Assembly: GCF_009914755.1 (NCBI RefSeq)
Contig: NC_060945.1
Reading direction: 5' to 3' (one strand)
Source of the DNA: the human T2T-CHM13v2.0 reference genome, Homo sapiens
DNA length: 64,000 nucleotides
In this document: positions 4,916 to 51,936 of the stretch, one piece after another
Layout of the letters: every line of letters begins with the position of its first letter
Numbering within the stretch: position 1 is the first letter of the stretch
Notes under the pieces: model-generated
What the model was told of the DNA's origin: nothing
The model's database searches: none
The model's input: only the letters and a program-made list of their open reading frames with translations
Position numbers and translations under genes: made by a program

Positions 4916-7900
4916 AGCCTGAGGCATGGTCAGGGGGCCCAAGTCAAAAGCTTGTCATCAGAAGAGTCATTATATCGTTTGAGGACACGAACATTGCCAG
5001 GGGCCAGTCAATATCAACTGCATGGTGATTTGAGGTTTAATCAATTGCAGTTGTGGTCTCCATAAAAATGGGTCCTTTGCTTTGCACACAGGAAAAGGAT
5101 TTGAATGAATCCCAAGTGGGTTACTATTCTGTGCAAGCTACAGAAATAGTCAGCATGCAAGTGACACAGATAAGGCACAGTCCCTTTCCCTTGGGGAGCT
5201 GAGAGCTGGTGAGTAGGCTGAGTGTCAGCAGAGAGTCTAGGTTTCAGGCTCACATCACTGCCCCTTCTACTGCCATTGTCTCAGGTGAGTTTCCCATGTT
5301 CCCTGAGTAGTGTTCTCCACCTGGAAGAGGGGGATCATCATGCTTGCTTTCTGCCTGTTGGGAGAATTAGAGGAGATACAGGGCAAGATCTGGCCTGTCC
5401 TGGTTTAATTATCATTATTAGGGGAAATAAAATGTAATCACAAATGGTTATTATCTAGCATAAAGTGAAAAGTGCCATTAGAGAAGGATCAGGAAGTTCA
5501 GAGGAGAAAGGGGTCATATTCAGCTGAGATAATCAGGAAATGGAACTTCCACTGAACGTGGAAGAAAGGCAGGGATTGTGGTGGCTTCACACGTTGACTT
5601 GGCTACGCTGGAGTTACATTTTCCAGAATTCTGCTCCCCTTGGAGGGTGGGTTGGAGGTGGGCCACAGGGCATTTGCAGGAGGTTTTGAAGGTAAAGGAG
5701 AAGCAACAGCTATGTTCCTTCAGCCCTTGGAACATAGCAACAGCTATGTTCCTCCAATGCACAGGGCTGGGCTCTGAAACTGCCTGTGCAATTTGTCCTC
5801 ACCTGTGGCTCATCTGGCTGCTCAGCCTCCAGCTCCTGCTGAATGCCCACTCTGTTCTCCAACTCCTGGGCTGCAGGCAGACTCAGCCTCATGACAAGGA
5901 AAGCCAGCTTCTCCTGCAGAACCCCCAGCCCTGTCACTGAAGTTGAGGCCTAGAAGTGTGAGAGACTAGGGTATGAGGCCTAAAGCTACAGCCCAATATT
6001 ATGTGTGTGCCTTCACATCTGGGGAACCCAGCCTAATGGCAAATTCCCCATCGCACGGTGCTCCTGCAGAGAAGGTGTCCTGGCTAAGCCGCTCTCCCTA
6101 ATACCAGAGCCAGGCACAGTACCTGCTATTGTTGGTAGGGGACTCTGTTCTCTGCAGGAACCATCTCCTCCTGCAGAAGCCAAGGGGCACCCCATTCTCT
6201 TGATACCACAGAGCCTGCCTCCCTTAGCCTTTTCTTGTTCACTCAGCTCCTGGGTGAAACCCCTGTGTGGCACTGAATGGTATATGGTGTCCTCCTCCCA
6301 ACCTGTCAATTTTACCTGTTCAGTGTTGGGGTGTCCTGTGTTTGACCAGGCTCAAAATCCTGGGCAGGGAATCCCTCCTTTGCCTACAAGGTGAAGAGGT
6401 GATGTTCAGAACACAGCCCCACGCCAGGTTCCAGTCTGTTCTCCTGGATTCTGGCTCCTGCCTGTGGCCTCACTCTCTCCCACTTCAAGTCCCTCCCCTC
6501 TTCCTCACTGCCTCCCCATGGACTTTAAATCCCAGCACCAGACACAAAGACGACAGCCTTGCAGAGACCATTTAACTAGCTTCCATCATTATGTGGCATC
6601 AAATCCCTATAATCATATCATAAGGTATCAAATCCCATATCATAAGGGATTTATTATAAGGGAATGTGACCTCACACAGGGATGGAAGCTGGTTAAACAG
6701 TCAAGGATGGAAGCCGGTTAAATAGTCTCTCTCTGTCTCTCGGTCTCTATCACTCTGATGGTTTTGTTGCTCAGATCTAACCCTGATTTTTATAGACTCT
6801 AACTGGTCAATCAGGCTGAAGGAATAACAGGATCTGAAAAATCTAAAGATGGTGTAGAAAAAGGCTGCTTCTGTGACAGGCGGGAATTTCTCAATCCACC
6901 ACCTTCGGTGTGCTAGAAATGTGACTGACTTTCTCTCCGGAGGCCCCTTTCTTGCAAGGAGCAGAAATAGAGTCTCCCTAATTCACAGGAAGCACAATGA
7001 CTATTCAGATTCCTCTCCCACCACCTTCACTTCAGAGGGGACACATTCCTTCCAGGGACTGACATGGCGGCTTCTCAGTCTCAGCAGGGGAGAGACGGGT
7101 TTTCCTTGGCCTCGGTAGGCATTGGCCTCCTCTGCAGTGAGTGTTGTCCCATTGGCACTTATTGGTTCCACTGGCCAGTCCACCCTACCCAAGGACAGTG
7201 TCCCCTCCTCCATTGTCTGCTGCCATATTTGATTCCTCTCTACTCTATTATGGGTCAGCAGGGGCGGGGGCCCACTGTGAGCCTTCCTCATGCCCTTGGC
7301 CTCAGCCTTCTGAGCAGACACCTGTTCCTACTTGTCTTGGTGCCCAGGGTAGCAGGAGGCAAAGTGCACTCAGGACCCCTTAACTCTAAGATTGTCAAAC
7401 AACGACAATCCCCTTGGGGCCAGTCATTGGGTGGGTTCATGGTTCCTTCTGAGAAACCCCATATGCACTTCATTCTTTTCATTTCCCATGCTCTCTCTTT
7501 TGGCCTGAAGAGAGTATTTTTCCTTAGAAGAAGCAAGTAGTTAAAAAATATTTTCTTCTTTTCTTTGACCTAGAGCTTAACAAAAGACAAAACTCAGATG
7601 ATGAAGTACTTAACATCTTCCTTCTTTCTTTCCTGCTGACTTGATGACTCTGCTTTGGAGCAGTGGGGGCCTCAGGGTCGCAGTGGAGAAAGCCATGGGC
7701 CAGTGGGAGGTGAAACGGAGCCAAAGGTGGGAGAGGGCTCGAGGGAAGAGGCCATGGATAAAAGGAACACCCTTTACACAGAGGTCAGGGGAAGATGGCC
7801 TTAGGAAAAGCCATTTGATTTGATATTTGAGAGATGTTTGGTGACCTTCAAGAGCATATTTTTGGGAGAATGCCAGAAAGAAAATAAGGTTGTAAAGAGT

Positions 7901-18380: not shown

Positions 18381-20226
18381 CCAGACCACCCAGATTCTAG
18401 GCAGAGACCAGAGAGGCTGTGACTCCTGATTGGCTGTGTCTAATGCCTAAGAAACTCTGGAAGGGGGTTGCTGGTACACCTGCCCAAATTTTGCCTCAGA
18501 TGGAGATGCTGTTTTTATTATCTAGGTCAGCCAACAAATCTGCCTTCTGCCCAGCAAGGAGACACTATCTCTATCTTCCAAGGCTATCTGCTATGCAAGC
18601 ATCCTTGAAAAAACAGCACAGAACAGAAACCATCAAAGCCTCTGCTCAAGAGACAGGCACAAATGCAATGACCCATGGGGGATGGTCTCCCCACAGGTAC
18701 ACTGACTCCCTTGATGGCACTCAGGTGACCCAAGTTAGCATCAGGCCTATCCAGTCTTCAGTCCCTGCTTGCCAGGGGGTGAGGAGATCAGCGAGGATCC
18801 TGTCCGCAGTTGCCATCTGACCCTGCTGTAGCTCTGGCTTGTCACTGCCACATATTCTTCAGGCTACTCAGTGACCCTGCCATCACAAGTCTCCTCCTCA
18901 AGCAAACAAACATCCCACAGCAAACAGACACAGCTTTTATGCAGGCCTGAAGATTCCTTCCTGGCTTAAACTCTTGTTAGGGATTACAACAGCTTGGTTT
19001 CCAAGACCTGCAGAAAATCTTTCTTTCACTGCAGCCACACTCTGCTGCCTCTCATGGACCACTTTGGAATAATGGGTGGAGAAGCAACATGGGCCTCGGG
19101 TGCCCTGGATATTAAACTGAGGATATTTAGTCTTTCCAGGTGCTCCTCAGAGAGCTGAGATACTCTCTACCACGTTCTTTAGAAAGTTAAAAGAGGACTT
19201 TTATGGACAAACTGTTAGTTTCCTTTGAACCTTTGGTGGGTAAGTGGTCTATAACACACTAGTCCTTTGGTTCCCAGTCTTATCCCAGTTTCAGAAGGCT
19301 GTGTGTCATTGCTGGAAATTGATTCATAGAGTTTCAGAGCTTCTCTAGAAGGCCTCAGCCATGTCCTTAAAAGTTGCATAAAACTTTTGGCATATGAGTG
19401 ATTCAGGGATCCTGACACCAGACCAGAGGGACCTCTACTGAGTGGTGATCTCCTGCTTGCGTAAAGAGCAATTTAAGCAACAGTGTGTTTTCTGTGTCGT
19501 AAGATAGTATCAAGGGTCTCTGCAGCAAGGGCCCAAAGATGATGGGTGGAATAAAAGCTTATCCGGTGTAGCTGGTAACCAGCTTCATGTCATGGCACTG
19601 GTCCATCTTTTCCCATCTCAACTGTTCCACCTTCTTCTCTTCAAGGGTAGACATGGTGGACGTGGATGCAAGATAGCAGGCATCAGGCAGATGTGAATGG
19701 CATGGAAAACCAGGCTCCTGGAGACATTGTGAGTGCTGAGTCCTGCGAGGCTTACTGGCTGCGTATTAAGAGAAGGCCTTGCTTAGTCCAGGAGGGTGGG
19801 CATTTTCCAGGCTGCCAGCCAGATGGATGCTGAGGAGGAAACCCAGTCCACTGATTCAACAGCTATTGTCCATGTACCCTATAGATATTGACCAGAGGAT
19901 AGAGAATTTATTTGAGTTTCACCATTCCAACATAGAATAATCTGTGTGCAGATTTGGGCTAATACGGTGACTTCCACAAAACAAATCAGACAGGTAGAGG
20001 TCTAGAGGAAGATTAATTATTATTACTGTCAATAACAGTCGTTTTAGTATACACTACCCTTTAATCTGCAGCCCCTGGAAGACAGCAATAATAGACCCCT
20101 ATCTGAACTGGAAGGAGGTGATCTTTTGAGACAATTGTTTGTGTGTTAAACTGATTTTAATGAGTATTTTTAAGGCAGGAGTCTTGAAAGCAATCCATTC
20201 TAGAGGCAGACATAATGTAGAATTTT

Positions 20227-20232
20227 TTTATT
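20227..20232 (-). terminator. Distal polyadenylation signal AATAAA
   Basis: Minus strand reads TGTACAAAAATAAA: a UGUA (CFIm) motif directly upstream of the hexamer. Confidence 0.65.
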
Positions 20233-21123
20233 TTTGTACAGGTTGAGAGAAAAATGTTAAAAAGGTAAACTTCTATGTTTGGGGGATATAGAAGTTTTAG
20301 GTTGATGAAAGATAGACTTTTAATTTTTTCCCCCAGAAAGTAACATTTCTTTTGCATAAAAAAAAAACAGTCTGAGAGTATGCAAACAGTACACGTCAAC
20401 ACGGATTACATTCTGAAACCATGGATGCACACCTCACATTCCTGGAGTCATCTAACACTAGCATCAGCAGGTGGTCTTGACATGGTCCTGGACCCATTCT
20501 GTGTCACTGAATCTAAGCAGACAAATGGGCCTGCCTGGAAAATAAATAGAAGGAAGAAAGGATGGGAAAGAAGGAGGGAGGGAGGGAAGGAAAGACATTT
20601 CTGAATATGTTCCCAAGATGGTAATAACTGGCACCAGTCTATGTTGGTGGCCTTAATGGAAGCCTGTAGAGAATCTTCAGCCTGGGAGACTGAGCAGCTG
20701 TGGATATTTGATCATGTTTTCTGGTTAATGCCAAATCTCTGACACAAAGACCTGGTTATCTTTCCATTTTATGGAAGTGAGCCTGGAATGGAGTGTTGCA
20801 GCCAGGGGAGGATTACATCCTCTTTCAAAAGCAAACCCTGTGAGGGTTGTGGGATAAAGAATGCAGTTCCGACTATTTATGAGTAAATTCTCTCTTAGGA
20901 TGAGCCACATGGGAGATAAAGTGAGGGAAAGGAAAGTAAAAACTTAGATTTTAGAGGAACATCACTTTCCTCTGGTTACAGAGGATTCAGGCAATGTTTA
21001 TTAAGATGGTCTATCACAAATTTGCATACCAGGCATAGTGGAGATAGGAAAAGTCATGGAGGGTAAGACGCACGATCTTGCCCCTTGTCACGCAAGCTGG
21101 GGCTACATTTCAGACTCCAGAGC

Positions 21124-21342
21124 AAGGGTCTGGCAAATGTTTCCTGTAATGGGCCAGGTAATAAATATTTTAGGCTTCATGGGCTATACCATCTCTGCTG
21201 CAACTATTCAGCTCTACCATTGTGCCATGAAAGCAGCCATAGACAATAGCAAATAGTGCATGTGGCCTTGTTTCAATAAAACTTTATTTAAAAAACAGCA
21301 GGAGGCTGGATTTGGCCCATAGGCCACAGTCAGTTGAACTCT
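21124..21342. mobile_element. MER58A (hAT-Charlie) inside the long DSCAM 3' UTR
   Basis: ggccaggtaataaatattttaggctt...aaagcagccatagacaata...aataaaactttattta. Confidence 0.85.
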
Positions 21343-21648
21343 GGCCATGGGCAGGCAAGGGGCAGAGCTTTGCGACGGGCTTCGAATACTTGGGCTGGCC
21401 TCTGGTTGCGGTGGAGACCAGCCTGCATTTTGTCCTCTCCAGCTTGAGAGCAGGAGCTGCACCTTCTTTGTGCTTCCTGGAGATTCCTGAGGAGTTCAGG
21501 GTGTTAGTATCGACTCTGGTTTATTGAATTGGGCTCTGGGTTCAGGCCTGGTGTTTCCAAACAGAAGTGTCAATGGGAAGGAGGACCAGGCCACTGGCAG
21601 AAGACGAGAGAAGCAGACATGGAAATAAAGGCAGACAACCTTTTCTTT

Positions 21649-21654
21649 TTTATT
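21649..21654 (-). terminator. Proximal polyadenylation signal AATAAA
   Basis: tttatt on the + strand about 600 nt after the stop, followed on the minus strand by GU/U-rich sequence. Confidence 0.7.
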
Positions 21655-22247
21655 TCGCTTAGACAAAATGCAAAGAGTGTCTCATTAAATTAAAAAAGAA
21701 ACAAGAGAGAAAACCAAATTGATTCCCCCCACCCCTTCACTGACGGCACTCATCCTAATTAACAACAAAAGAAGACCAAATTGAGAACCCGGTTTCTAAT
21801 GGGAAAGAAAGGTGTGCAAACGTGACTGAAGTTTTCCCCTGCCCGCAAATCGGTGTTCCTTTTAAATTCACAAATAGGCTGATTTCCCACCCACCCTGTT
21901 TTCTTTCTTGCCTCTTGTGTGATAGAACTTCCAGTCAGAAGGTTTAATTAATCCCCCCATGCACTTTTGTAGAAAATCAGTAAAAATGCAATAGCCTGTG
22001 AAGATCATAAAACTGGACTTCTTTCCCAAAAAATCAGATGCCCAGGCGGATGGAGCTCACACTCAGACAGAAAAAAAGCAGGAGAGTCTTTGCACTGTCT
22101 GTGGTTTCAGTATTTTCTCTTTTTTTTTTTTTTAATATATTTTGGCAATTTTCTTTAATTATAAATATTGGAATTCCGTAAAAAAAAGGTAGCTTTGATT
22201 GAATTGTTTGAATTGTATTTACAACCGCTGTCCAGTCATGCTGTCTG

Positions 22248-22634
<387 letters not shown>

Positions 22635-30437: not shown

Positions 30438-31387
30438 GAAAAGAAACATAGCTACGCAGGTCGGTAGACAGATAAAAATTAGAGACAGAGTCACAAATAG
30501 AGAAGGGAAAAGGGGAACATGGTAACCATCTGGGACAGTGGTAAGGAGCAGTGGAGGAAGAGGGCACCAGAAAGGTGAGTACTATGAGAATAAATGTGTA
30601 CCACCCACTTTGAACGGCCCTTGTGGAGCTTTAAAGATGTGTGCACCATACAAGGACCACTGGCCCATCCATCACTGGGGCACCCATTTCTCATTCTTTT
30701 CTCATCAGCCTCACCAAAACCCAGTGCAGATCACAGGCTGCACCCATCACTGCCTTTCTGGAGGGAACCCAGGCAGCTGCTTTGACTTCCGCCTTGAGGA
30801 TGAGACGCTTTACCCATTATTGCAGCATTTTGCTTTCTTATTTGACATCATGCTTCATTTCTCATCCTTCTGTTGCTGCCCTCTGGGGACCTTCAGTGCC
30901 ATTAATGTCTCCAAAAGTTCTGATTAAATAGGTCAGCATTGATTTCTCTCTCTTTCTCTAACCACTTTGCATACTAGTATCACAAGCTCCTCCTTGCCTC
31001 TGGTCCTGAAATGTACAGATTCCTTCTGCAGGCCCCACATCCATCAGCAGATTCACACTCAGAGCTTGTCCCCCTCCACTAACGGTGCATTAGAACCATG
31101 GTTGGCCTGACTGTGGGAAAACTGCTGAACTAAACCTGCCTCCTTTTAGCTGAAACCTAGGAAAGCAAAACTTCCTGAATTTTCTCAATCTATTCAGACA
31201 CACGCAAGGTTTGAATGTATTTCAGTTCTTGGAAGAAGGATGGCAAAATCAATACTGAAATAACAAGAATGAAGCAATTCAGAAAATGGATGTGCATTCC
31301 ATTAATCCATCATCAAACAATGGTTCTTGCTATGGTTCTTGCTATCTCCCAGGCACCACACTAGGGGAAAATATCTGAACACTAGAT

Positions 31388-31604
31388 CAGAGGCTCTCCA
31401 CTGAGGGTGGCTTTGTCCCCAGGGGACATGTAGCAAAGTCTGGAGACATTTTGATTGTCATAACACAGGGGAGGGTGACACTATTGATACCTATTGGTCA
31501 GAGGCCAGGGGTGCTGCTCAACATCATCCAATGCTCAGAATAGCCCCTGCCACGAAGAATGATCTGGCTTCAAATACTAACGGTGCTGCTGTTGAGAAAC
31601 TCTG
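31388..31604. mobile_element. MER20 (hAT-Charlie)
   Basis: ccccaggggaca...tctggagacattttgattgtca...gaggccagggg...gttgagaaactctg. Confidence 0.85.
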
Positions 31605-32002
31605 TTTTAGATGATCAGAATTCATAAGGCCAAGTGTTCCTTATTTCACTTTAATTCTACTTATAAAGCATTGAATTCAACCAGGATAAGCAGTTGTACC
31701 CCTCAGCCTCAGAATACTAGTCCACAAGGAGTTACGACCTCAGTTCTTCATGGAAGAAAATAAGAGATGGTCCAATGGAACTGTAATCAGAAGGCAAAAC
31801 CCCCAGGTCTTTCTCCATTGGCACCCGCTGAGGCAGGAGCTGATTCCAGTGGAAAGAGCAGTAGTTACAGAGTGCAGGGCTTGGTGTTGAAATCCTGTCT
31901 CTGCCTCTGCTTCTGCCTCCAGGTAGTTTTGTGACCCTTTTGAGCCTTGGTGCTCTTGCCTTTAGACAAATGAATGAGGCACAATACATTCTTTTTTTTT
32001 TT

Positions 32003-32075
32003 CTTATATCTAAACTTTTTATTAGCAACAAGTAATATTTACCAAAAGTATTGAGTTGGATGTATTTTAGCAGTA
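32003..32075 (-). other. 3' transduction carried by L1 copy A (~73 bp, own AATAAA at 32018-23, second poly(A) at 31993-32002)
   Basis: Non-L1 sequence between the L1 tail and a second A-run, inside the TSD. Confidence 0.8.
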
Positions 32076-32300
32076 TTTTCTTTTCTTTTTTTCTTTTATT
32101 ATTTTAAGTTTTAGGGTACATGTGCATATTGTGCAGGTTAGTTACATATGTATACATGTGCCATGCTGGTGTGCTGCACCCATTAACTAGTCATCTAGCA
32201 TTAGGTATATCTCCCAGTGCTATCCCTCTCCCCTCCCCCCACCCCACTACAGTCCCCAGAGTGTGATGTTCCCCTTCCTGTGTCCATGTGATCTCATTGT

Positions 32301-36137
<3,837 letters not shown>

Positions 36138-36185
36138 TTATTTTGCTCGTTAGTTGATGCAGTTTCTTCCTAGTCTTGATGGTCT

Positions 36186-37188
36186 CTACATTTTGGCATG
36201 ATTTTGCAGTGGCTGGTACCGGTTGTTCCTTTCCATGTTTAGTGCTTCCTTCAGGAGCTCTTTTAGGGCAGGCCTGGTAGTGACAAAATCTCTCAGCATT
36301 TGCTTGTCTGTAAAGTATTTTATTTCTCCTTCACTTATGAAGCTTAGTTTGGCTGGATATGAAATTCTGGGTTGAAAATTCTTTTCTTTAAGAATGTTGA
36401 ATATTGGCCCCCACTCTCTTCTGGCTTGTAGGGTTTCTGCCGAGAGATCCACTGTTAGTCTGATGGGCTTCCCTTTGAGGGTAACCCGACCTTTCTCTCT
36501 GGCTGCCCTTAACATTTTTTCCTTCATTTCAACTTTGGTGAATCTGACAATTATGTGTCTTGGAGTTGCTCTTGTCAAGGAATATCTTTGTGGCATTCTC
36601 TGTATTTCCTGAATCTGAACTTTGGCCTGCCTTGCTAGATTGGGGAAGTTCTCCTGGATAATATCCTGCAGAGTGTTTTTCAACTTGGTTCCATTCTCCC
36701 CATCACTTTCAGGTACACCAATCAGACGTAGATTTGGTCTTTTCACATAGTCCCATATTTCTTGGAGGCTTTGCTCATTTCTTTTTATTCTTTTTTCTCT
36801 AAACTTCCCTTCTTGCTTCATTTCATTCATTTCATCTTCCATCACTGATACCCTTTCTTCCAGTTGATCGCATCGGCTCCTGAGGCTTCTGCATTCTTCA
36901 CGTAGTTCTCGAGCCTTGGTTTTCAGCTCCATCAGCTCCTTTAAGCACTTCTGTGTATTAGTTATTCTAGTTATACATTCTTCTAAATTTTTTTCAAAGT
37001 TTTCAACATCTTTGCCTTTGGTTTGAATGTCCTCCTGTAGCTCAGAGTAATTTGATCGTCTGAAGCCTTCTTCTCTCAGCTCGTCATAGTCATTCTCTGT
37101 CCAGCTTTGTTCCGTTGCTGGTGAGGAACTGCATTCCTTTGGCAGAGGAGAGGCGCTCTGCTTTTTAGAGTTTCCAGTTTTTCCCCAT
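36186..37188 (-). pseudogene. L1 ORF1 of copy A, frameshifted by a ~14-nt deletion just after the ATG (only a 248-aa C-terminal frame is open)
   Basis: ATGGGGAAAAACTGG lacks the consensus AAAAAACAGAGCAG segment. Confidence 0.9.
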
Positions 37189-37646
37189 CTTTGTGGTTTT
37201 ATCTACTTTTGGTCTTTGATGATGGTGATGTACAGATGGGTTTTTGGTGTGGATGTCCTTTCTGTTTGTTAGTTTTCCTTCTAACAGACAGGACCCTCAG
37301 CTGCAGGTCTGTTGGAGTACCCTGCCCTGTGAGGTGTCAGTCTGCCCCTGCTGGGGGGTGCCTCCCAGTTAGGCTGCTCGGGGGTCCGGGGTCAGGGACC
37401 CACTTGAGGAGGCAGTCTGCCCTTCTCAGATGTCCAGCTGCGTACTGGGAGGACCACTGCTCTCTTCAAAGCTGTCAGACAGGGACATTTGAGTCTGCAG
37501 AGGTTACTGCTGTCTTTTTGTTTGTCTGTGCCCTGCCCCTAGAGGTGGAGCCTACAGAGGCAGGCAGGCAGGCCTCCTTGAGCTGTGGTGGGCTCCACCC
37601 AGTTCGAGCTTCCTGGCTGCTTTGTTTATCTAAGGAAGCCTGGGCA

Positions 37647-37904
37647 ATGGGGGGCCCCCCTCCCCCAGCCTCACTGCCGCCTTGCAGTTTGATCTCAGAC
37701 TGCTGTGCTAGCAATCAGCAAGACTCAGTGGGTGTGGGACCCTCCAAGCCAGGTGCGGGATATAGTCTCGTGGTGCGCCGTGTTTTAAGCTCGTCAGAAA
37801 AGCGCAGTATTCGGGTGGGAGTGACCCGATTTTCCAGGTGCCGTCCGTCACCCCTTTCTTTGACTAGGAAAGGGAACTCCCTGACCCCTGTGCTTCCCGA
37901 GTGA
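37647..37904 (+). CDS. L1 antisense ORF0 of copy A (85 aa, MGGPPPPASLPPCSLISDCC...), splice donor SD1 after 37752
   Basis: Matches the primate ORF0 peptide; CAG|GTGCGG at nt 106; expression unknown. Confidence 0.55.
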   Translation: MGGPPPPASLPPCSLISDCCASNQQDSVGVGPSKPGAGYSLVVRRVLSSSEKRSIRVGVTRFSRCRPSPLSLTRKGNSLTPVLPE

Positions 37905-40900
37905 TGCAATGCCTCGCCCTGCTTCGGCTCGCGCATGGTGTGCACACCCACTGACCTGCGCCCACTGTCTGGCACTCCCTAGTGAGATGAACCCGGTACC
38001 TCAGATGGAAATGCCGAAATCACCCGTCTTCTGCGTCGCTCAGGCTGGGAGCTGTAGACGGGAGCTGTTCCTATTCGGCCATCTTGGCTCCTCCCCCCCA
38101 GGCACAATACTTTCTAAAGGCACCTTGAAGCCTAAAAGAGCCCTTCTTATACTCTGAGGTATCTCACCACTGAAACTGGTTACATACATCTGTATTGGGA
38201 ATTAATGGATAAGGGTGGAACAAATGAAATGCATTTCTGGGGGCCAGATATTCCAAAGCAGTTTGGGGTAGCCTTCTTCCTCCTCCTCTGCAATGCTTTG
38301 TTAGTTGGAGGCTGTAAACATGCCGATGCTTTCCCAAATTTGTGGGAATGAATGTGAATCACAGTTTTTGGGGCTTCAATCTCCTCTGCGGACACATAAA
38401 AAGGAACTTTCATCAATTTCTAACAAGGTTTGAGATCTATGCCTGGATAGAGCTGGATATTGATGCAAAAGTAAGAAGCAAAAGATGATTTCCTTGAGTT
38501 CCAGCAATTTCAATAAAAAACACAGAGACCAGACTTGCAACAACACTATAGTGTCAAAGAGCTGGTTCCCAAAGGGGAGCATAGAGTCCACCCATACCAG
38601 AGACAGACGAGATCTAACACTTTTTGAGTTTAATATTAATGTTGCAGCATGGTAATGAAAACTAGTAAAAGAATCTCTCTTGGTAAATGAATCTTCACTC
38701 CCAAACGGCAAGCAGGAAAAACCCTAAATAAATAATGTGAGATTGATATCAGAGGCCCATGTGCAGGGACTCGATTACAATTCTTGGCTTGTACTCAGGG
38801 GCCCTCATGCATTTTTTAAGAGCTCATCAATATTGTGATCCTTCTGCTTGCTGGTGAACTTTAAAAACTACACCGAGGTATAAAAGTAGGGCTTTGACTT
38901 TGTTGAGGCTTATGATTCTTCTCAAATAAAGTAGATCTGAATAAAAGACGGATTGGAAAATCTTCCCTGGCCTTTAGGCAAGCACAGAACTTAGCAGTGG
39001 TTTTGGAGCACCCACTATGGAACGATCCATGAGATCCAAAGATGGATACAGTTCCCACACAACAGCCACAAGGAACCACACATTGGGGACCACCTGAAGC
39101 AGAACCCTAGCTGGGGGCTTGGCCTTGTTCTGCCATGAAGCTGACAGAGCTGTTTCTACAACAATGTGCATCTTGAATCATCCCACAGAAGGAGCTGAGT
39201 TAGGCTGGAAATGAGAGAATTCCAGACAGAGGGAAGGTATATTTGTGGAGTTGTAGGAGGCCAGAAAGTTGAAGGCTGGAGACTAGGGGCAAGGTTGGAG
39301 GCTGGAGACCAGGGGTCAAGGCAAGGAAGACAAGGCTGACCCCTCAGACGCTAGTAAGTCTCTACTGTGAGAGCAGCAGGAAGCCATGGAAGGGGGTTAA
39401 ACAGAGGAAGGTTGACTCTTACTGGAAATGATGGCTTGTCTCCCATTTCTGGTTTGGGATACAGGATGCCTTAGGCCCTGGTGCCAGCAGAGTGTACAGG
39501 AGGCCACATTGGAAGACGATGGTCTTTGCTGTCTTCTTACCTTTCTGTATGCTCCCTGGGCCTTCGTGTGGCTTTAGCTTCTCACAAGGCCTCACTGGGC
39601 TGTGTATGTGTGTGCGTGTTTGTGTGTGTAGGTGGTGACTGACCATCTTCTATGAGCTGGGCTTTGTATTATTTCTTGACCTTCTCAAGATTTGCCTGTC
39701 TCATGTCTTCAGAACCCATTGCCTGCAGTCTTTGATACACACTATTCTGATAAATGAATGAGACTGTGAGGAGTGTTAATTTAAGATATTAACCCTTTTA
39801 TGTGTTAGGGTAATACCCAGTGTCTTTTTACTCAGGAGATATTCAATCAGTAGGGATTCAATACACGAGTGTCGTATATTTGTGTTTTAACCGGGTCTGT
39901 CTGAGATGCAGTGAACGTTCAGTTAGCCTGGGCAGCCTTCTTTCTTGTCATCTGTAGAGCTGGAATCTGGGAGCTTCCTTCTGGTCACTCAGCAGGGACA
40001 AAGAGGCCTCTACCCCCACATCACTGTTCTCTAAGGTACATGCCTCCCCCATCACTTTCCACCTCTCGAGGAACTGGCACAGCCCAGGATTTCGCAATGA
40101 TTAGAACTGAACCCCAATAAGCTACCCAAGAAAAACAGTGAGCCTTTTAAGGGGCTCAGAAGTCAGACAAGAGAATCAGAACACAGGGAATACATGTTCT
40201 GGAACAAGAGGACACAAACACCAGCTTAGCAACTGCAGCAAGTACAGTGAACCAGCCAGACCACTGGACAAGGTCAGAGGTACAGGGGATGGCCTCTTGA
40301 ACACAGTGGCAGGAGGATGGTTGCAGGGTAGTGGCTGCAGAAGACCCCATGTACATACATGCTAAGCTTTTATTTCAGGCAAAGGGCTTAGAGTTCTAAG
40401 CTTGAGAACCCCTCAGAACAGGTCCTACTGTCACTTTCTGAGTCTGAGGGAGAGTTACTAAGAAGACACTGAAATTCTATAAGAGCCCTTAAGAAGCTAA
40501 AATTGCAAATACTCCTCAGAGAGACCTGGATTTCCAGCAGAAATCAGGATTAGCACATGCCAATATTTAGGTCGACATCGAGTGGGCGTGAACAGCAGTA
40601 TGTGGAGGCTTTGTTGGATGGCCCCAGGGTTCTTTTAACCTAAAATTCTATGGGAGTGTTTGAAGGGTCGTAGTTCAGAGGGAACTCTTGATCCCTGTTG
40701 TGAACGCCAAGCTCATTCCTATCTCCTGGCCTTTATCTTTGCTCAGCTCTCTGGACCACCAGAAGGATCTTTGCAGGGCTCCTTCCATCCCATCATTTAC
40801 GTCTCATTGCCTGAGAGGCCTTTCCGGGCCATTCTTTCCAAAATACTCCCCTCCCACGTTTTATCCCCTTCCTGGATTTGCTTCTCCACCCAGCACTCAC

Positions 40901-41119
40901 CACAGTCGGGAACGATACTATTTGTTTGTTTACTTGATCAGTGGGGATCTCTGTGGGTCTTGTCTATCAATCACTGCATCCTCAGTTCCCAAAACAGGAC
41001 CAGTCATTTAGTGTCCACTCAACACACGCATGGCAAAAAAAGACAGAGGAGCAGGGAGGCTGAGAGGGAGGGAGCAAGCCTTCCTCTAGAAGGGTGGAAC
41101 GCAGAGCAGTGCAGTGAGA

Positions 41120-41272
41120 ATGTGTGTGTGCCTGTGTGTATCCATGCATGGGAGCATGTGCTTATGTATCCACGTACATGTGCATGTGTGTCAACATATA
41201 TGTGTCCATGCATGTGTACTTGTGTGTGAATGTGTATGTGTGCACGCATGTGTGTGCGCAAGCACACGTGTA
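41120..41272. repeat. Degenerate (TG/CA)-rich purine-pyrimidine alternating tract
   Basis: tgtgtgtgtgcctgtgtgtatccatgcatg...gcacacgtgt. Confidence 0.85.
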
Positions 41273-42410
41273 GGCATCAAAGAGACTTGCATTTGAAAGG
41301 AGACCCTTAGTATAATATTTATGATAAACATTTCAAAACTGAGTTTTAGTGATGTGCAGAACAGAGGAGGAAGATGCAAGCCCCGAGGCTTGGCACCCCA
41401 GCTGCCTGAGCCAAGTCCTCAGGCAGTGAGGGAGATATAGGTAAGTGAAGCTGGGGGTGGGGGTTATTTAGCTCTGAAGATTGGACTGCTGGTGTCTTGT
41501 TTTGATTTCAGAGCCAACATGACAGATACCCAGACTTCAGAGAGGGAAAACAGCATGGTCAAAATGACAACTGAGAATACGGTGGCCAGCCTTGGTCAGA
41601 ATAGTGCTGACCTGTGCAGAGGTAGGCTCTTTCTTCAGGTAAGGGCTCCTGGCCTCTCTGCATGCCTTGGGGCCCGCCTCCTACTCTCCACCCTCACACC
41701 CTCAGGAGAGAGTGATGCAAGATGAATGGATCCTAAAATTAAAATCCAGTAACTCTTTCGAATTACTGGCAATTTAGTGAATTAACAAGTTGGCACCAGG
41801 CAGTGGCCTTTTCCCACTAAAAAAAAAAAAAACAACCTCAAATGCATTCCCCAAGGAAGGGGCTGAAACTCATAACCTTGTGTCTGGGGCCCAGAGGGCA
41901 TGAGCACAGAGATCCAAAGGGGCTGATGCTTTCCCTACCACTAGTGGGGCAGGCTGTGTTAGGGTGCATGTCTGAAACTTGAAACTGAATTAAGTAGCTT
42001 CATGTAATGGCTTCTCTTGACGGCACAGGATAAACATCATAAGAAGAAGAAGCAGTAATCCAAGAAGGTTTGCAACTGGCTCAAAATGCTACCTGAAACC
42101 AAGAATGGGTACTGTAATCAAAGAATTGGAAGCCACCTTGACCCAGAGGAAAAAAAATTGTTAAACTTTGCAGCTATTTCTCAAAAGAATAGAGAATTTT
42201 GTTTTCTGTTTGTAGAGATGGGAATAGTCATCCCTTATGGAAGAAGACAATAATTTGCTGCATTTTTAGGACTTGTAATTGTACAGGCAAATTCAAAATT
42301 CAGGTAGCATTAAAATTACAGCTAGATAATGCTGCCTGCTTTGTGGATAGCTATCCTCATTTCAAGGGAGAGCACCCCTTTATCTGTTGAAGAGATGTCT
42401 TTTTGATTTG

Positions 42411-42854
42411 CTAAGGGCAAGAATGGAAAATAAGTGCGAATAGGAACAGCTCCGGTCTGCAGCTCCCAGCGTGAGCGACGCAGAAGACGGGTGATCTCGG
42501 CATTTCCATCTGAGGTACCGGGTTCATCTCACTAGGGAGTGCCAGACAGTGGGTGCGCACACTGTGCGTGAGCCGAAGCAGAGCGAGGCATTGCCTCACT
42601 CGGGAAGCACAAAGGGTCAGGGAGTTCCCTTTCCTAGTCAAAGAAAGGGGTGACGGACGGCACCTGGAAAATCGGGTCACTCCCACCCGAATACTGTGCT
42701 TTTCTGACGGGCTTAAAACATGGCGCACCACGAGATTATATCCCGCACCTGGCTTGGAGGGTCCTACGCCCATGGAGTCTCGCTGATTGCTAGCAGAGCA
42801 GTCTGAGATCAAACTGCAAGGTGGCAGCCAGGCTGGGGGAGGGGGGCCCGCCAT
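42411..42854 (-). CDS. L1 antisense ORF0 of copy B, extended to 147 aa and running out of the element into flanking DNA; SD1 after 42749
   Basis: MAGPPPPAWLPPCSLISDCSASNQRDS... within ORF 42411..42995; expression unknown. Confidence 0.55.
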   Translation of the reverse strand: MAGPPPPAWLPPCSLISDCSASNQRDSMGVGPSKPGAGYNLVVRHVLSPSEKHSIRVGVTRFSRCRPSPLSLTRKGNSLTLCASRVRQCLALLRLTHSVRTHCLALPSEMNPVPQMEMPRSPVFCVAHAGSCRPELFLFALIFHSCP

Positions 42855-43295
42855 TGCCCAGGCTTGCTTAGGTAAACAAAGCAGCCTGGAAGCTCGAACT
42901 GGGTGGAGCCCACCACAGCTCAAGGAGGCCTGCCTGCCTGCCTCTGTAGGCTGCACAGACAAACAAAAAGACAGCAGTAACCTCTGCAGACTCAAATGTC
43001 CCTGTCTGACAGCTTTGAAGAGAGCAGTGGTCCTCCCAGTACGCAGCTGGACATCTGAGAAGGGCAGACTGCCTCCTCAAGTGGGTCCCTGACCCCGGAC
43101 CCCCGAGCAGCCTAACTGGGAGGCACCCCCCAGCAGGGGCAGACTGACACCTCACAGGGCAGGGTACTCCAACAGACCTGCAGCTGAGGGTCCTGTCTGT
43201 TAGAAGGAAAACTAACAAACAGAAAGGACATCCACACCAAAAACCCATCTGTACATCACCATCATCAAAGACCAAAAGTAGATAAAACCACAAAG

Positions 43296-44298
43296 ATGGG
43301 GAAAAACTGGAAACTCTAAAAAGCAGAGCGCCTCTCCTCTGCCAAAGGAATGCAGTTCCTCACCAGCAACGGAACAAAGCTGGACAGAGAATGACTATGA
43401 CGAGCTGAGAGAAGAAGGCTTCAGACGATCAAATTACTCTGAGCTACAGGAGGACATTCAAACCAAAGGCAAAGATGTTGAAAACTTTGAAAAAAATTTA
43501 GAAGAATGTATAACTAGAATAACTAATACACAGAAGTGCTTAAAGGAGCTGATGGAGCTGAAAACCAAGGCTCGAGAACTACGTGAAGAATGCAGAAGCC
43601 TCAGGAGCCGATGCGATCAACTGGAAGAAAGGGTATCAGTGATGGAAGATGAAATGAATGAAATGAAGCAAGAAGGGAAGTTTAGAGAAAAAAGAATAAA
43701 AAGAAATGAGCAAAGCCTCCAAGAAATATGGGACTATGTGAAAAGACCAAATCTACGTCTGATTGGTGTACCTGAAAGTGATGGGGAGAATGGAACCAAG
43801 TTGAAAAACACTCTGCAGGATATTATCCAGGAGAACTTCCCCAATCTAGCAAGGCAGGCCAAAGTTCAGATTCAGGAAATACAGAGAATGCCACAAAGAT
43901 ATTCCTTGACAAGAGCAACTCCAAGACACATAATTGTCAGATTCACCAAAGTTGAAATGAAGGAAAAAATGTTAAGGGCAGCCAGAGAGAAAGGTCGGGT
44001 TACCCTCAAAGGGAAGCCCATCAGACTAACAGTGGATCTCTCGGCAGAAACCCTACAAGCCAGAAGAGAGTGGGGGCCAATATTCAACATTCTTAAAGAA
44101 AAGAATTTTCAACCCAGAATTTCATATCCAGCCAAACTAAGCTTCATAAGTGAAGGAGAAATAAAATACTTTACAGACAAGCAAATGCTGAGAGATTTTG
44201 TCACTACCAGGCCTGCCCTAAAAGAGCTCCTGAAGGAAGCACTAAACATGGAAAGGAACAACCGGTACCAGCCACTGCAAAATCATGCCAAAATGTAG
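43296..44298 (+). pseudogene. L1 ORF1 of copy B, with the same 14-nt deletion as copy A
   Basis: Same ATGGGGAAAAACTGG junction; the 248-aa translation is identical to copy A. Confidence 0.9.
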
Positions 44299-44361
44299 AG
44301 ACCATCAAGACTAGGAAGAAACTGCATCAACTAACGAGCAAAATAACCAGCTAACATCATA

Positions 44362-48193
<3,832 letters not shown>

Positions 48194-48420
48194 ACAATGA
48201 GATCACATGGACACAGGAAGGGGAACATCACACTCTGGGGACTGTAGTGGGGTGGGGGGAGGGGGGAGGGATAGCACTGGGAGATATACCTAATGCTAGA
48301 TGACCAGTTAGTGGGTGCAGCGCACCAGAATGGCACATGTATACATATGTAACTAACCTGCACAATATGCACATGTACCCTGAAACTTAAAGTATAATAA
48401 TAAAGAAAAGAAAAGAAAAA

Positions 48421-48540
48421 GAATATGAACTAAGAAAAACTAAAGTCTAACAGGGGAAACGTGTCAGAAAAAAATACCAATGTAGGTTTTTGAATATGTG
48501 AAGGAAAAACTGATTAAATTATGCAGATGAAATAAAAATC
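48421..48540 (+). other. 3' transduction carried by L1 copy B (~120 bp, ATTAAA at 48513-18, second poly(A) from 48541)
   Basis: Non-L1 sequence between the L1 tail and a second A-run, inside a perfect 17-bp TSD. Confidence 0.88.
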
Positions 48541-51043
48541 AAAAAAAAAAAGAATGGAAAATAAGTCACTTTGATTAAAGCTACTGAAAGTTGGAGTAGA
48601 TTTAAATGTCCTTTTGTATTTATTTGACTATAATTTCTATTAATTGAAATATTTTAACCAATTTAACCAGTTGGTTTTGTTGTCACAAGCATGATATATT
48701 CATTCATACAGTAAGGTTTATGAAGCATCTACTAATGTGCCAGACACAGTCTGGCCATATATGTGTATATTATAAACACACACAGGAGATATATATATTT
48801 ATGTATAGAGAGAGAGTTTTAAGTATGTAGTATTGAGTATTCAATACTATTAATTCATTTAAAAATAATTCTTGCATGATAACTACTTGGCTATCAGGTA
48901 TCTGCTAGACCTTGAGAAGGAAGTATGAAGATAACTAAGACATATTTCCTATTTTTCTGAAGCCACAGTCTGGCCAAATTCATGTAACTTGATGGCAATT
49001 TGCAGAGAATTTCAAAGTCTGGGGATCATAACTATTTGTACTGAAGACAGAAAAAATAAAAAGGGAAAGAGAAAAAAAGGACCATCAGAAAAGAAGCTCT
49101 AAAGTTGAGGAGGAAGAAATTGAGAGATTTGGAAGACTATAAACAGAAACAGACATGACGAATATCATCTAGCGTGAAGAGGGCATATAGGGAAAGAATG
49201 TGATGTAAAAGCACAGCTCTAGGAGCTGCTAATTGTATCACAAGCTCTAGTTAGCAGAATAGTAAACTGCAACCTTGTATTTTGTGCCCAATGTTGAATT
49301 TAGTTGAATTATAAAGGAGCGACGGAAAGGTTTCCAAAGGCTGAAATATTTTCTAAAGCATATCAGATGTTCAGTAATAATGCAGTCATCTAGGGTAGAC
49401 AAAACAAAGTTTGTGGACATTTGAACTTGCATTGATTTAAGAGATTATTCAAACCTATATTTATAAAATCATTTTACTCTGAATAGTCTATGAAGACAAT
49501 AGTAACTTAGCTATGATCTTCCATTGCTCTAATGGGTCCAGGTCACAATATCATGAGCAAAGGTCAAATTTTTAAGAAACAATCCAACAATATGAGCAGC
49601 GTGCCATCAAAAACAAGCTTCAACCCTGTAATTATGTAAAGGCCTGCACAAATAGGACAGTCTTTTAACCTAGAAGCTCATTCTGTGCCCTAAATCACAC
49701 ACAAAGGGAAAATGACGGCATGCTATCTCAGGTGGAAACATAAAGTACTTAACTGGGTGACACACAATTGAGGTGGGTACCTGCTAGGACTTCAGTGGTC
49801 ACTGGAGAAAAATAAAAGCAAGAAGGAAGAGGAGGTCAGCAGTACAGCTGGAGTCACAGTGGGGATTCTAGCAACCCAGTGCCAGAAACAATGGCTAACA
49901 TGGCTGAGTGCCTCCTCTGCTGACCCCTTCACCTGTATAATGCTATGTGCATCTAACAGAAGCCCAGTACACAGTCACCAACGCCATTCCCATTTTACAG
50001 ATGCAGGAACTGAAGCTGAGAACGCCTATACAACATGCCCACAGGCTTATGGTCTTCTCTCCAGTCCTCCTCACCTTCAGGCTGAAGAGCTGCAGAAAGT
50101 CATGGCATTTATCCTGCATTTTTCTCCATTTGCCTTGCAAATAAATGCCAACAACACGAAAAAAAAAATAGTTGAAATAAAAACACCCACAAATAACAGC
50201 TTGTCTTTTCCCCTAAGGAGGTAGACAGAATGAAAATAAAGGAAGCCATCATTCTTTATTGGATGCTGGCATGAATCTTGAGCTGGTATGGAAGATTATT
50301 TGCTGGATAAACTATTCTTATTTTATATATTTTTATGCATTTATAAAGCTCATTTCAGCTAGGCCTTGTCCCATAAAACCCAAGGGAATTGTAGTAATTC
50401 AAAAGTGAAGATACTTTTTGAAATGGAACTAGAACAGTGGTGTAGAAAATGGGTAAAATGAGAAACAAAACTGGATTCAATAAGATTGGATAGATCAGTC
50501 TGTGAAGGAAAGTCTACAGGCAACTATTTCAGGGTGAAAAAGAAAAAGTGGTTCTTCAGATGAGAACTACACTTGGCTGCCATAGGTTGGATTCCACCTA
50601 AAGATGGGTTTTATTTGCCCTGTACAATGGTTTACAAATATCCAAGCCAACACTAAAAAGCTGTGAATTTCCATATAAAACCAAGTTTTCCGGCTTCTCT
50701 TAAAACACAAGTCCATACTAAGACCCCATTTCCACTTGCGATCAGTTGGCAGGGCCTTGCTAGAGTCTTTTCTTTTAGACAGTAGTGAACCCTGAAATGG
50801 CCCATGTCCGCCTCGCTCCTTTGACCCTGTTCTCTAGCCTCTGCATTCTATTATCTGCCATGCCTTGCTGACCTCAAAATTTGCAGCTTTCACAACCCGG
50901 ACGATTCACAGGTGTTCAAGTTGAAGACCAAACTGCTGGCTGACTTAATGTTAGCCAGTTACCATCACCTTGTGTAATTCAGTGAGGCCAAGTCCCAAAC
51001 ACTGACTATATAGTAAGACCTCTCCCCTTTCAGAAGCCCTCAG

Positions 51044-51594: not shown

Positions 51595-51936
<342 letters not shown>

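What the first reader, a model, noticed from the sequence alone, without database searches (positions are those of the whole stretch)
31977..48566. Head-to-head pair of ~6-kb young L1s forms an invertible cassette in the last DSCAM intron
Seen: copy A (minus, 32076-38099) and copy B (plus, 42436-48420) are highly similar inverted repeats around a 4.3-kb unique spacer. Established: long, close, highly identical inverted repeats drive recurrent inversion by non-allelic homologous recombination. Inference: the spacer plus both L1 5' ends can flip. A flip would swap which 5' UTR (YY1-intact A or YY1-less B) sits on each arm and faces each direction, acting as a promoter switch inside a dosage-sensitive neuronal gene. 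An inversion here may already be catalogued; the promoter-swap consequence is my inference.
Basis: partly seen in the sequence, partly recalled or inferred. Interest (0 to 1): 0.8.

Follow-up and report, generated by a model that had tools for sequence, protein, structure and literature searches.

The report
Inverted L1 pair in DSCAM intron
Two dead L1 retrotransposons face each other in the last DSCAM intron; the flip they could cause is already catalogued and is judged an error of the older human reference, not a working switch.

Summary
L1 copy A (minus, 32076-38099) and copy B (plus, 42436-48420) lie head-to-head around a 4.3-kb unique spacer. They are 97.7% identical over 6,016 aligned columns. 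Each has its own target-site duplication and its own 3' transduction, so they are two separate insertions. Both are coding-dead.

The inversion idea is not new. Exactly this spacer differs in orientation between GRCh38 and CHM13 (PMC11874961). It appears in DGV and in the Ebert and Porubsky call sets. Pooled Strand-seq of 41 samples (82 haplotypes) supports the CHM13 orientation, and the site is classed as a GRCh38 misorientation (PMC10150506). A gibbon study calls it a misassembly of the human reference (PMC9712629). In this window each L1 keeps its own matching duplications. That is the original, unflipped arrangement, or an even number of flips.

One possibly new detail: a 1,486-bp stretch has no differences between the arms, where 28 are expected (P about 5e-13). 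It holds a shared ORF1-disabling lesion, so the arms have exchanged sequence by gene conversion.

No call or paper passage gave evidence for the promoter-switch idea. Verdict: already known, low interest.

The parts
31977..31991 (-). 3'-side target-site duplication of L1 A
   Evidence: Read on the minus strand, it matches 38100-38114 at 14 of 15 positions, with an 11-nt perfect core GTATTGTGCCT.
31992..32075 (-). 3' transduction of L1 A (73 nt, 32003-32075) plus an 11-A tail (31992-32002)
   Evidence: Non-L1 sequence follows the A-rich L1 end. It contains AATAAA shortly before the A tail, and the duplication follows. It has no match in B's 3' flank.
32076..38099 (-). L1 copy A: full length (6,024 bp), same strand as DSCAM, complete 5' end
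   Evidence: ORF1p, EN and RT domains found. The ORF1 start is out of frame. ORF2 frame breaks lie near 34168, 32860 and 32475.
38100..38114 (-). 5'-side target-site duplication of L1 A
   Evidence: pairs with 31977-31991.
38115..42419 (.). Unique spacer; this is the segment whose orientation differs between GRCh38 and CHM13
   Evidence: No masked repeat of 100 nt or more (supplied annotation). Only small tandem repeats, no Rfam hit, and no ORF of 100 aa or more lying within it. Porubsky 2023 Table S4 region T2T chr21:38416077-38420437 equals window 38077-42437.
42420..42435 (+). 5'-side target-site duplication of L1 B
   Evidence: AGAATGGAAAATAAGT is identical at 16 of 16 positions to 48551-48566.
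42436..48422 (+). L1 copy B: near full length, antisense to DSCAM, lacks the first ~21 nt
   Evidence: ORF1p, EN and RT found. Same ORF1 lesion as A. Private ORF2 frame breaks at 44454-44457, about 47129 and about 47528.
48423..48550 (+). 3' transduction of L1 B (118 nt, 48423-48540) plus a 10-A tail (48541-48550)
   Evidence: Non-L1 sequence with AATAAA at 48531-48536, then the A tail, then the duplication. Unrelated to A's transduced stretch.
48551..48566 (+). 3'-side target-site duplication of L1 B
   Evidence: pairs with 42420-42435.
36046..37531 (-). Zero-difference (gene-conversion) tract, arm A: last ~340 nt of the 5' UTR, all of ORF1, the inter-ORF spacer and the first ~25 codons of ORF2
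   Evidence: 0 differences in 1,486 alignment columns against 28.3 expected (P = 4.9e-13). 0 of 20,000 permutations reached a gap that long.
42953..44438 (+). Zero-difference (gene-conversion) tract, arm B
   Evidence: Same calls. It contains the shared out-of-frame ORF1 start at 43296.
42292..42791 (.). RefSeq 'enhancer' feature, spanning the spacer end, B's duplication and the first ~356 nt of B's 5' UTR
   Evidence: Supplied annotation only; not tested here.

Best explanation
Two L1PA-type retrotransposons of similar age, older than L1HS, inserted independently and head-to-head into DSCAM intron 32. Both are now coding-dead. They form a 6-kb, 97.7%-identical inverted repeat around 4.3 kb of unique DNA. 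The arms have interacted by homologous recombination at least once: a non-reciprocal exchange (gene conversion) made about 1.5 kb identical and copied an ORF1-disabling lesion from one arm to the other. By inference this happened within roughly the last 1-2 million years. The CHM13 arrangement in this window is the original one, and it is fixed or nearly fixed in humans. The opposite orientation in GRCh38 is most likely a misassembly of the clone-based reference, or less likely a very rare allele. By inference, a misassembly is made easy by the 1.5-kb perfect inverted repeat, which is longer than a Sanger read. The structure is a passive recombination substrate, not a regulatory switch. Shown: anatomy, independence of the insertions, dead ORFs, the identity tract, and the catalogue entries. 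Inferred: the timing of the conversion, why GRCh38 was misassembled, and the absence of function.
For: Independent insertions: each copy has its own duplication (A 14/15, B 16/16), and the two 3' transductions are unrelated. Similar age and subfamily: CpG-decay sites split 7 (A keeps CpG) to 9 (B keeps CpG). Over ORF2p residues 32-652 against human ORF2p 8uw3_A, A and B share 9 replacements, with 6 private to A, 11 private to B and 1 three-way difference (read by eye; the 18 A/B differences agree with 97.1% over 621 aa). Not L1HS: the three bases after GATGAC in the 3' UTR are TAG (A) and CAG (B); the L1HS state is recalled. Dead: the ORF1 ATG is out of frame with the ORF1 body and meets a stop after 7 codons in both copies, and each ORF2 has three private frame breaks. 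Conversion: 0 of 107 difference events fall in 1,486 columns, 28.3 are expected, P = 4.9e-13, and the longest gap in 20,000 permutations was 782. The tract is not a mutational cold spot: its ORF1p differs from crystallised human ORF1p at 12 of 224 aligned residues before the chain's His tag. Original orientation: a crossover inside the L1s would separate each copy's two duplications, and here they are together. Population and outgroup: pooled Strand-seq reads of 41 samples are 1397 Crick to 9 Watson on CHM13 and 13 to 1397 on GRCh38, class 'GRCh38.miso'. The text says all 82 haplotypes support CHM13. The T2T-based call set has no chr21 call near 38.41 Mb. The gibbon table calls the site a misassembly artefact of the human reference.
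Against: The misassembly verdict is taken from papers. I could not see GRCh38 or its source clone, and Porubsky 2023 itself allows that such sites could be very-low-frequency polymorphisms. PMC11874961 describes the site as an inversion 'segregated' between GRCh38 and CHM13. A 1.5-kb perfect tract is also an excellent NAHR substrate, so real flips are mechanistically plausible. Matching duplications are equally compatible with an even number of past flips. A 1.49-kb conversion tract is at the long end for mammals ('rarely longer than 1 kb', passage in PMC3961182). The two primary sources for the misorientation (Vicente-Salvador 2017, Audano 2019) were not held.
Confidence: 0.85

Rival explanations
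1. It is a true NAHR inversion polymorphism, possibly recurrent. GRCh38 carries a genuine rare allele produced by a crossover between the L1 arms, most likely inside the 1.5-kb identical tract.
For: The architecture matches published L1-flanked balanced inversions: 22 L1-flanked cases, 6 of 22 with full-length pairs, median identity 97.2%, median size 5.6 kb (Porubsky 2022 preprint, passages). The arms have demonstrably recombined. Porubsky 2023 does not exclude very rare alleles. PMC11874961 treats the site as an inversion.
Against: 0 of 82 haplotypes carry the GRCh38 orientation. There is no call at the locus in the T2T-based set. The gibbon paper's table labels it a misassembly, citing two earlier studies.
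Confidence: 0.1
2. It is a functional invertible promoter cassette. Flipping moves the complete (YY1-box) 5' UTR from the DSCAM-sense arm to the antisense arm and so changes DSCAM expression or splicing.
For: Only A has the AAGATGGCC motif. A crossover in the identical tract would swap the first ~570 nt of the 5' UTRs. A RefSeq enhancer feature overlaps B's 5' UTR (supplied annotation).
Against: No orientation variation is seen among sampled humans, so there is nothing for selection or regulation to act on. In either orientation one L1 is sense and one antisense to DSCAM. Both elements are old and dead. No expression data link either 5' UTR to DSCAM. No paper found reports an effect.
Confidence: 0.02
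3. The zero-difference tract is not gene conversion. It is either an assembly or polishing artefact of CHM13, or inheritance of the same defective segment from a common source element.
For: Only one haplotype was examined here. Both copies share the ORF1 lesion.
Against: A common source would give uniform similarity, but the flanks differ at 5.7 and 1.9 events per 100 columns. The two copies carry different 3' transductions, so they came from different source loci. From general knowledge, an element without an in-frame ORF1 start is a poor source. Also from general knowledge and not tested, CHM13 is effectively haploid and built from reads longer than a whole L1.
Confidence: 0.03

Closest known systems
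The catalogued 'DSCAM intronic inversion' / GRCh38 misorientation chr21:40028842-40033181
   Same: It is the same locus. Porubsky 2023 Table S4 gives T2T chr21:38416077-38420437, which is window 38077-42437. PMC11874961 describes it as lying between exons 32 and 33 and mediated by two inverted 6.0-kb L1s. DGV, Ebert and Porubsky entries are listed in PMC12229492.
   Different: The passages and tables I read mention neither the identity tract, the shared ORF1 lesion, the two transductions, nor the duplication argument for polarity. The full texts of Audano 2019 and Vicente-Salvador 2017 were not available.
L1-flanked NAHR balanced inversions in humans (Porubsky et al. 2022 class)
   Same: Inverted L1 pair with more than 90% identity, kilobase-scale unique spacer, full-length elements.
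   Different: Members of that class show both orientations among sampled haplotypes. Here only the reference differs.
[quoted passage not shown]
   Same: Non-reciprocal homogenisation between inverted arms on one chromosome.
   Different: Only one tract covering about a quarter of the arm is homogenised. The rest keeps about 2-6% divergence, and there is no sign of selection maintaining identity.
Programmed invertible promoter switches (bacterial fim/hin type, recalled)
   Same: A promoter-bearing segment lies between inverted repeats.
   Different: There is no site-specific recombinase, no evidence of switching, and the repeats are decayed transposons.

Membership tests
Full-length LINE-1 (L1PA-type) insertion by target-primed reverse transcription | ORF1p (trimerisation, RRM, CTD) and ORF2p (endonuclease and reverse transcriptase) in the L1 order | tested here: met
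   Pfam PF17489, PF02994 and PF17490 in ORF1. PF03372, PF14529 and PF00078 in the ORF2 pieces of both copies. PDB hits to human ORF1p and ORF2p with E = 0 to 1e-136.
Full-length LINE-1 (L1PA-type) insertion by target-primed reverse transcription | Poly(A) tail and flanking target-site duplication for each copy | tested here: met
   A: 11-A tail and a 14/15 duplication. B: 10-A tail and a 16/16 duplication.
Full-length LINE-1 (L1PA-type) insertion by target-primed reverse transcription | Subfamily assignment (L1PA2 or L1PA3 rather than L1HS) against a repeat library | not testable with these tools
   No Dfam or RepeatMasker library was available. Indirect evidence: 9 replacements shared against L1HS ORF2p, a non-L1HS 3'-UTR trinucleotide (the diagnostic is recalled), and 1.9% arm divergence.
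Retrotransposition-competent L1 | Intact ORF1 and ORF2 | tested here: not met
   The ORF1 start is out of frame in both copies. Each ORF2 has three frame breaks.
NAHR-mediated inversion polymorphism | Long, highly identical inverted repeats at the breakpoints | tested here: met
   97.7% identity over 6 kb, with 1,486 bp perfect.
NAHR-mediated inversion polymorphism | Both orientations present among independent haplotypes | tested here: not met
   From the literature: 82 of 82 haplotypes read like CHM13, and only GRCh38 differs. It is classed as a misorientation.
NAHR-mediated inversion polymorphism | Hybrid arms (swapped duplications) on the derived arrangement | not testable with these tools
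In CHM13 the duplications are not swapped.
Interlocus (ectopic) gene conversion between repeats | An identity tract much longer than the background divergence allows | tested here: met
   0 events observed against 28.3 expected, P = 4.9e-13, and 0 of 20,000 permutations.
Interlocus (ectopic) gene conversion between repeats | A shared derived lesion inside the tract while lesions outside it are private | tested here: met
   The shared out-of-frame ORF1 start lies inside the tract. All six ORF2 frame breaks lie outside it and are private.
Programmed invertible regulatory switch | Observed switching and a dedicated recombination system | tested here: not met
   No orientation variation in population data. 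No recombinase-like ORF in the spacer.

The most novel reading that the evidence does not exclude
The arms are still recombining in the human lineage. On this reading the 1.5-kb perfect tract marks a recent exchange, the GRCh38 orientation is a real, very rare NAHR allele rather than an error, and the two states place different L1 5' UTRs on the DSCAM-sense and antisense arms, with a measurable effect on local transcription or on the 3' end of DSCAM.
Probability: 0.02. Interest if true: 0.55.

Novelty: already known. Interest (0 to 1): 0.1.

Why it matters
The main value is for interpreting the reference. Anyone working on the 3' end of DSCAM in GRCh38 coordinates sees 4.3 kb, plus the inner L1 parts, in the wrong orientation. 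Inversion callers will report a homozygous 'inversion' in every sample, as the repeated DGV entries show. The conversion tract is a small, clean example of two unrelated L1 insertions homogenising each other. It also offers a concrete reason why a Sanger-era clone assembly could not orient the segment. Nothing here suggests a consequence for DSCAM dosage.

Tried and rejected
Inverted segmental duplication instead of two insertions: rejected, because homology stops at the L1 ends and each copy has its own duplication and transduction.

Different ages or subfamilies of the arms: rejected on CpG decay of 7 versus 9 and on 9 shared ORF2p replacements.

Other recent conversion tracts: none. The next-longest identical run is 295 columns, within the range of longest gaps seen in the uniform-placement permutations (mean 291, maximum 782).

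PRDM9-type 13-mer as a hotspot cue: 4 matches in the window against 2.0 expected, and only one lies in the pair (B 3' UTR, 48254-48266). This is uninformative.

Rfam on 31000-49500: no family.

Spacer: no ORF of 100 aa or more lying within it, and only small tandem repeats.

Literature that gave nothing for this locus:
- The searched supplement files of Giner-Delgado 2019 gave only HsInv0045 on chr21; 6 of its 18 files were not searched.
- Puig 2020 main text had no chr21 or DSCAM term.
- The supplements of PMC13629690 and PMC13721702 had no hit.
- A search for 'DSCAM' with 'HsInv' found 0 papers.
- Audano 2019, Vicente-Salvador 2017 and the PMC id I tried from memory for Porubsky 2020 were not held.
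- bioRxiv supplements are closed, so Table S2 of the Porubsky 2022 preprint was not seen.
- Earlier findings of this scan were not open.
Full report
**Observation**

The window holds a long inverted repeat. The repeat finder returned seven collinear inverted blocks, 95-100% complementary, between 32076-37887 and 42614-48418. blastn joined them into one alignment: A 38077-32076 against B 42437-48419, 97.69% identical over 6,016 columns, with 92 mismatches and 12 gap openings. There is no similarity beyond the elements. Pfam finds the three ORF1p domains and the endonuclease and reverse-transcriptase domains in both copies. PDB searches hit human L1 ORF1p and ORF2p. So these are two full-length L1s, 5' end to 5' end, with 4,336 bp between them. 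By the supplied annotation they lie in the last intron of DSCAM (exon 33 at 20213-22600, exon 32 at 51600-51902). A is on the gene's strand and B is antisense.

**Anatomy of each copy**

A begins at 38099 with the complete L1 5' end, including AAGATGGCC at 38077-38085. I recall this as the YY1-box core. The window's only other copy of that 9-mer is at 7792-7800, and B has none. The A-rich 3' end of A at about 32076 is followed by:
- 73 nt of non-L1 sequence with an AATAAA,
- an 11-A tail,
- a duplication (31977-31991) that matches 38100-38114 at 14 of 15 positions.

B begins at 42436, about 21 nt into the element. It ends at about 48422 and is followed by:
- 118 nt of different non-L1 sequence with AATAAA,
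- a 10-A tail,
- a perfect 16-nt duplication (42420-42435 and 48551-48566).

Two separate duplications and two unrelated 3' transductions mean two independent retrotransposition events from different source loci. This is not an inverted duplication.

**Age and state**

CpG-decay sites that distinguish the copies split 7 (A keeps CpG) to 9 (B keeps CpG). I compared ORF2p residues 32-652 with human ORF2p (8uw3_A) by eye:
- A and B share 9 replacements.
- A has 6 private replacements.
- B has 11 private replacements.
- One position differs three ways.

The 18 A/B differences agree with the 97.1% identity over 621 residues. The three bases after GATGAC in the 3' UTR are TAG (A) and CAG (B), not the L1HS state as I recall it. 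So both belong to the same or neighbouring pre-human L1PA subfamilies. I think L1PA2 or L1PA3, but no repeat library was available to test that.

Both copies are coding-dead. The ORF1 ATG (B 43296, A 37188) is out of frame with the ORF1 body and meets a stop after seven codons in both copies. ORF2 has three frame breaks in A (near 34168, 32860 and 32475) and three in B (44454-44457, near 47129 and near 47528). Each break is private, because the other copy reads through that point.

**The identity tract**

The 107 difference events (97 substitutions, 10 indels) are not spread evenly:

| Segment | Columns | Events | Events per 100 columns |
|---|---|---|---|
| First part of the 5' UTR | 547 | 31 | 5.7 |
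| Tract (A 37531-36046, B 42953-44438) | 1,486 | 0 | 0 |
| Rest of the element | 3,985 | 76 | 1.9 |

At the lower rate, 28.3 events are expected in the tract, giving P = 4.9e-13. In 20,000 random placements the longest gap never exceeded 782 columns.

The tract is not a mutational cold spot. Its ORF1p differs from the crystallised human ORF1p at 12 of 224 aligned residues before the chain's His tag, some of which may be engineered in that construct.

The tract contains the only inactivating lesion the copies share. It is bounded by a 17-nt indel on one side. On the other side there is a substitution, followed 15 nt later by a 4-nt indel.

Independent insertions from different sources cannot share 1.5 kb of perfect identity and a disabling lesion while differing by 2-6% elsewhere. 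The arms have therefore undergone gene conversion after insertion. With a mutation rate of 0.5-1e-9 per site per year (recalled), zero differences in 2 x 1,486 bp puts a 95% upper bound of about 1-2 million years on the event. That bound is an inference. I could not determine which arm was the donor.

**Polarity of the arrangement**

A crossover inside the L1 bodies would invert the spacer together with both 5' ends and their inner duplications. Each arm would then carry one duplication from A and one from B. In this window each arm has its own matching pair. CHM13 therefore carries the original arrangement, or an even number of flips.

**What is in print**

- PMC11874961 (section 11, read in full) presents 'the DSCAM intronic inversion' between exons 32 and 33. 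[quoted passage not shown]
- PMC12229492 (supplementary file 3, rows found by search) lists seven DGV inversion entries over the locus, for example 21:40022914-40039149. It also lists one from Ebert (21:40023257-40038716) and one from Porubsky (21:40028842-40033181).
- Porubsky 2023 (PMC10150506) Table S4 gives that last region as T2T chr21:38416077-38420437, which is window 38077-42437, exactly the spacer. Its class is 'GRCh38.miso'. Pooled Strand-seq reads of 41 unrelated samples are 1397 Crick to 9 Watson on CHM13 and 13 to 1397 on GRCh38.
- The text of the same paper (passages) defines 26 such regions in which all 82 haplotypes support CHM13. It says they might be very-low-frequency polymorphisms but are more likely misorientation errors.
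- Its T2T-based call set (Table S1) has no chr21 entry near 38.41 Mb among the nine chr21 rows of that table.
- The gibbon Strand-seq paper (PMC9712629, Supplemental Table S3 rows and main-text passages) excluded chr21:40025040-40029190 / 40035740-40039812. [quoted passage not shown] 2017 and Audano et al. 2019). [quoted passage not shown] So a gibbon also reads opposite to GRCh38, which agrees with the duplication argument.
- The two primary sources were not held.

**Interpretation**

The pair matches the published class of L1-flanked NAHR inversions: 22 cases, 6 with full-length pairs, median identity 97.2%, median size 5.6 kb (Porubsky 2022 preprint, passages). But every sampled human haplotype and the gibbon have one orientation. 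The single exception is a clone-based reference that others have judged misassembled.

My own addition, by inference, concerns why that could happen. The 5.4 kb between the two copies of the perfect 1,486-bp tract can be placed either way by an assembler whose reads are shorter than the tract. This assumes that the sequenced haplotype also carried the tract.

The same tract would be a good crossover substrate, so a rare true allele cannot be excluded. I give it about 10%.

The promoter-swap idea follows geometrically, because a crossover in the tract would exchange the first ~570 nt of the 5' UTRs. No data support it. In both states one L1 is sense and one antisense to DSCAM, and there is no orientation variation on which any regulation could act.

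**Verdict**

The invertible-cassette reading is already catalogued and is most likely a reference artefact rather than a live polymorphism. The functional switch is unsupported. The gene-conversion tract with a shared ORF1 lesion, the two transductions and the duplication-based polarity are small details that I did not find in the passages I could read. Interest is low.

Noticed in passing
31992-32075 and 48423-48550: Both L1s carry a 3' transduction (73 nt and 118 nt). Each has its own AATAAA and A tail, and the two sequences are unrelated. They could be traced to two source loci.
   Followed up: partly
37532-37548 (absent in B at 42952/42953) and B 44454-44457: The zero-difference tract is bounded on both sides by indel differences between the arms: 17 nt on one side and 4 nt on the other (the latter 15 nt past the first substitution). 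Indels may have stopped heteroduplex extension, or this may be chance.
   Followed up: no
37532-38077 versus 42437-42952: The outer 5' UTR parts differ at 5.7 events per 100 columns against 1.9 in ORF2 and the 3' UTR. Only 10 of the 28 substitutions there are in CpG context, so CpG decay alone does not explain the excess.
   Followed up: partly
ORF2 of A (34167-36137) and of B (44456-47161): Private ORF2p replacements are clustered. 5 of A's 6 lie at residues 486-603, and 8 of B's 11 lie at residues 226-349 (by eye). No test for chance was done.
   Followed up: no
42292-42791: The RefSeq 'enhancer' feature spans the spacer end, B's duplication and the first ~356 nt of B's truncated 5' UTR. The matching part of A has no such feature in the supplied table.
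   Followed up: no
37236-37904 (+); 42411-42854 (-) and 42868-43248 (-): There are long ATG-initiated open frames antisense to the L1 5' UTRs: 222 aa in A, and 147 plus 126 aa in B. They are probably chance frames in G+C-rich sequence.
   Followed up: no
32076-38099 with 42436-48420, minus-strand transcript: In the DSCAM pre-mRNA the two arms are complementary, so intron 32 could fold into a ~6-kb imperfect double-stranded stem with a 4.3-kb loop. That would be a possible RNA-editing substrate in either orientation. Not tested.
   Followed up: no
48254-48266: The only match to the 13-mer CCNCCNTNNCCNC within the pair lies in B's 3' UTR. A differs at the matching site.
   Followed up: partly
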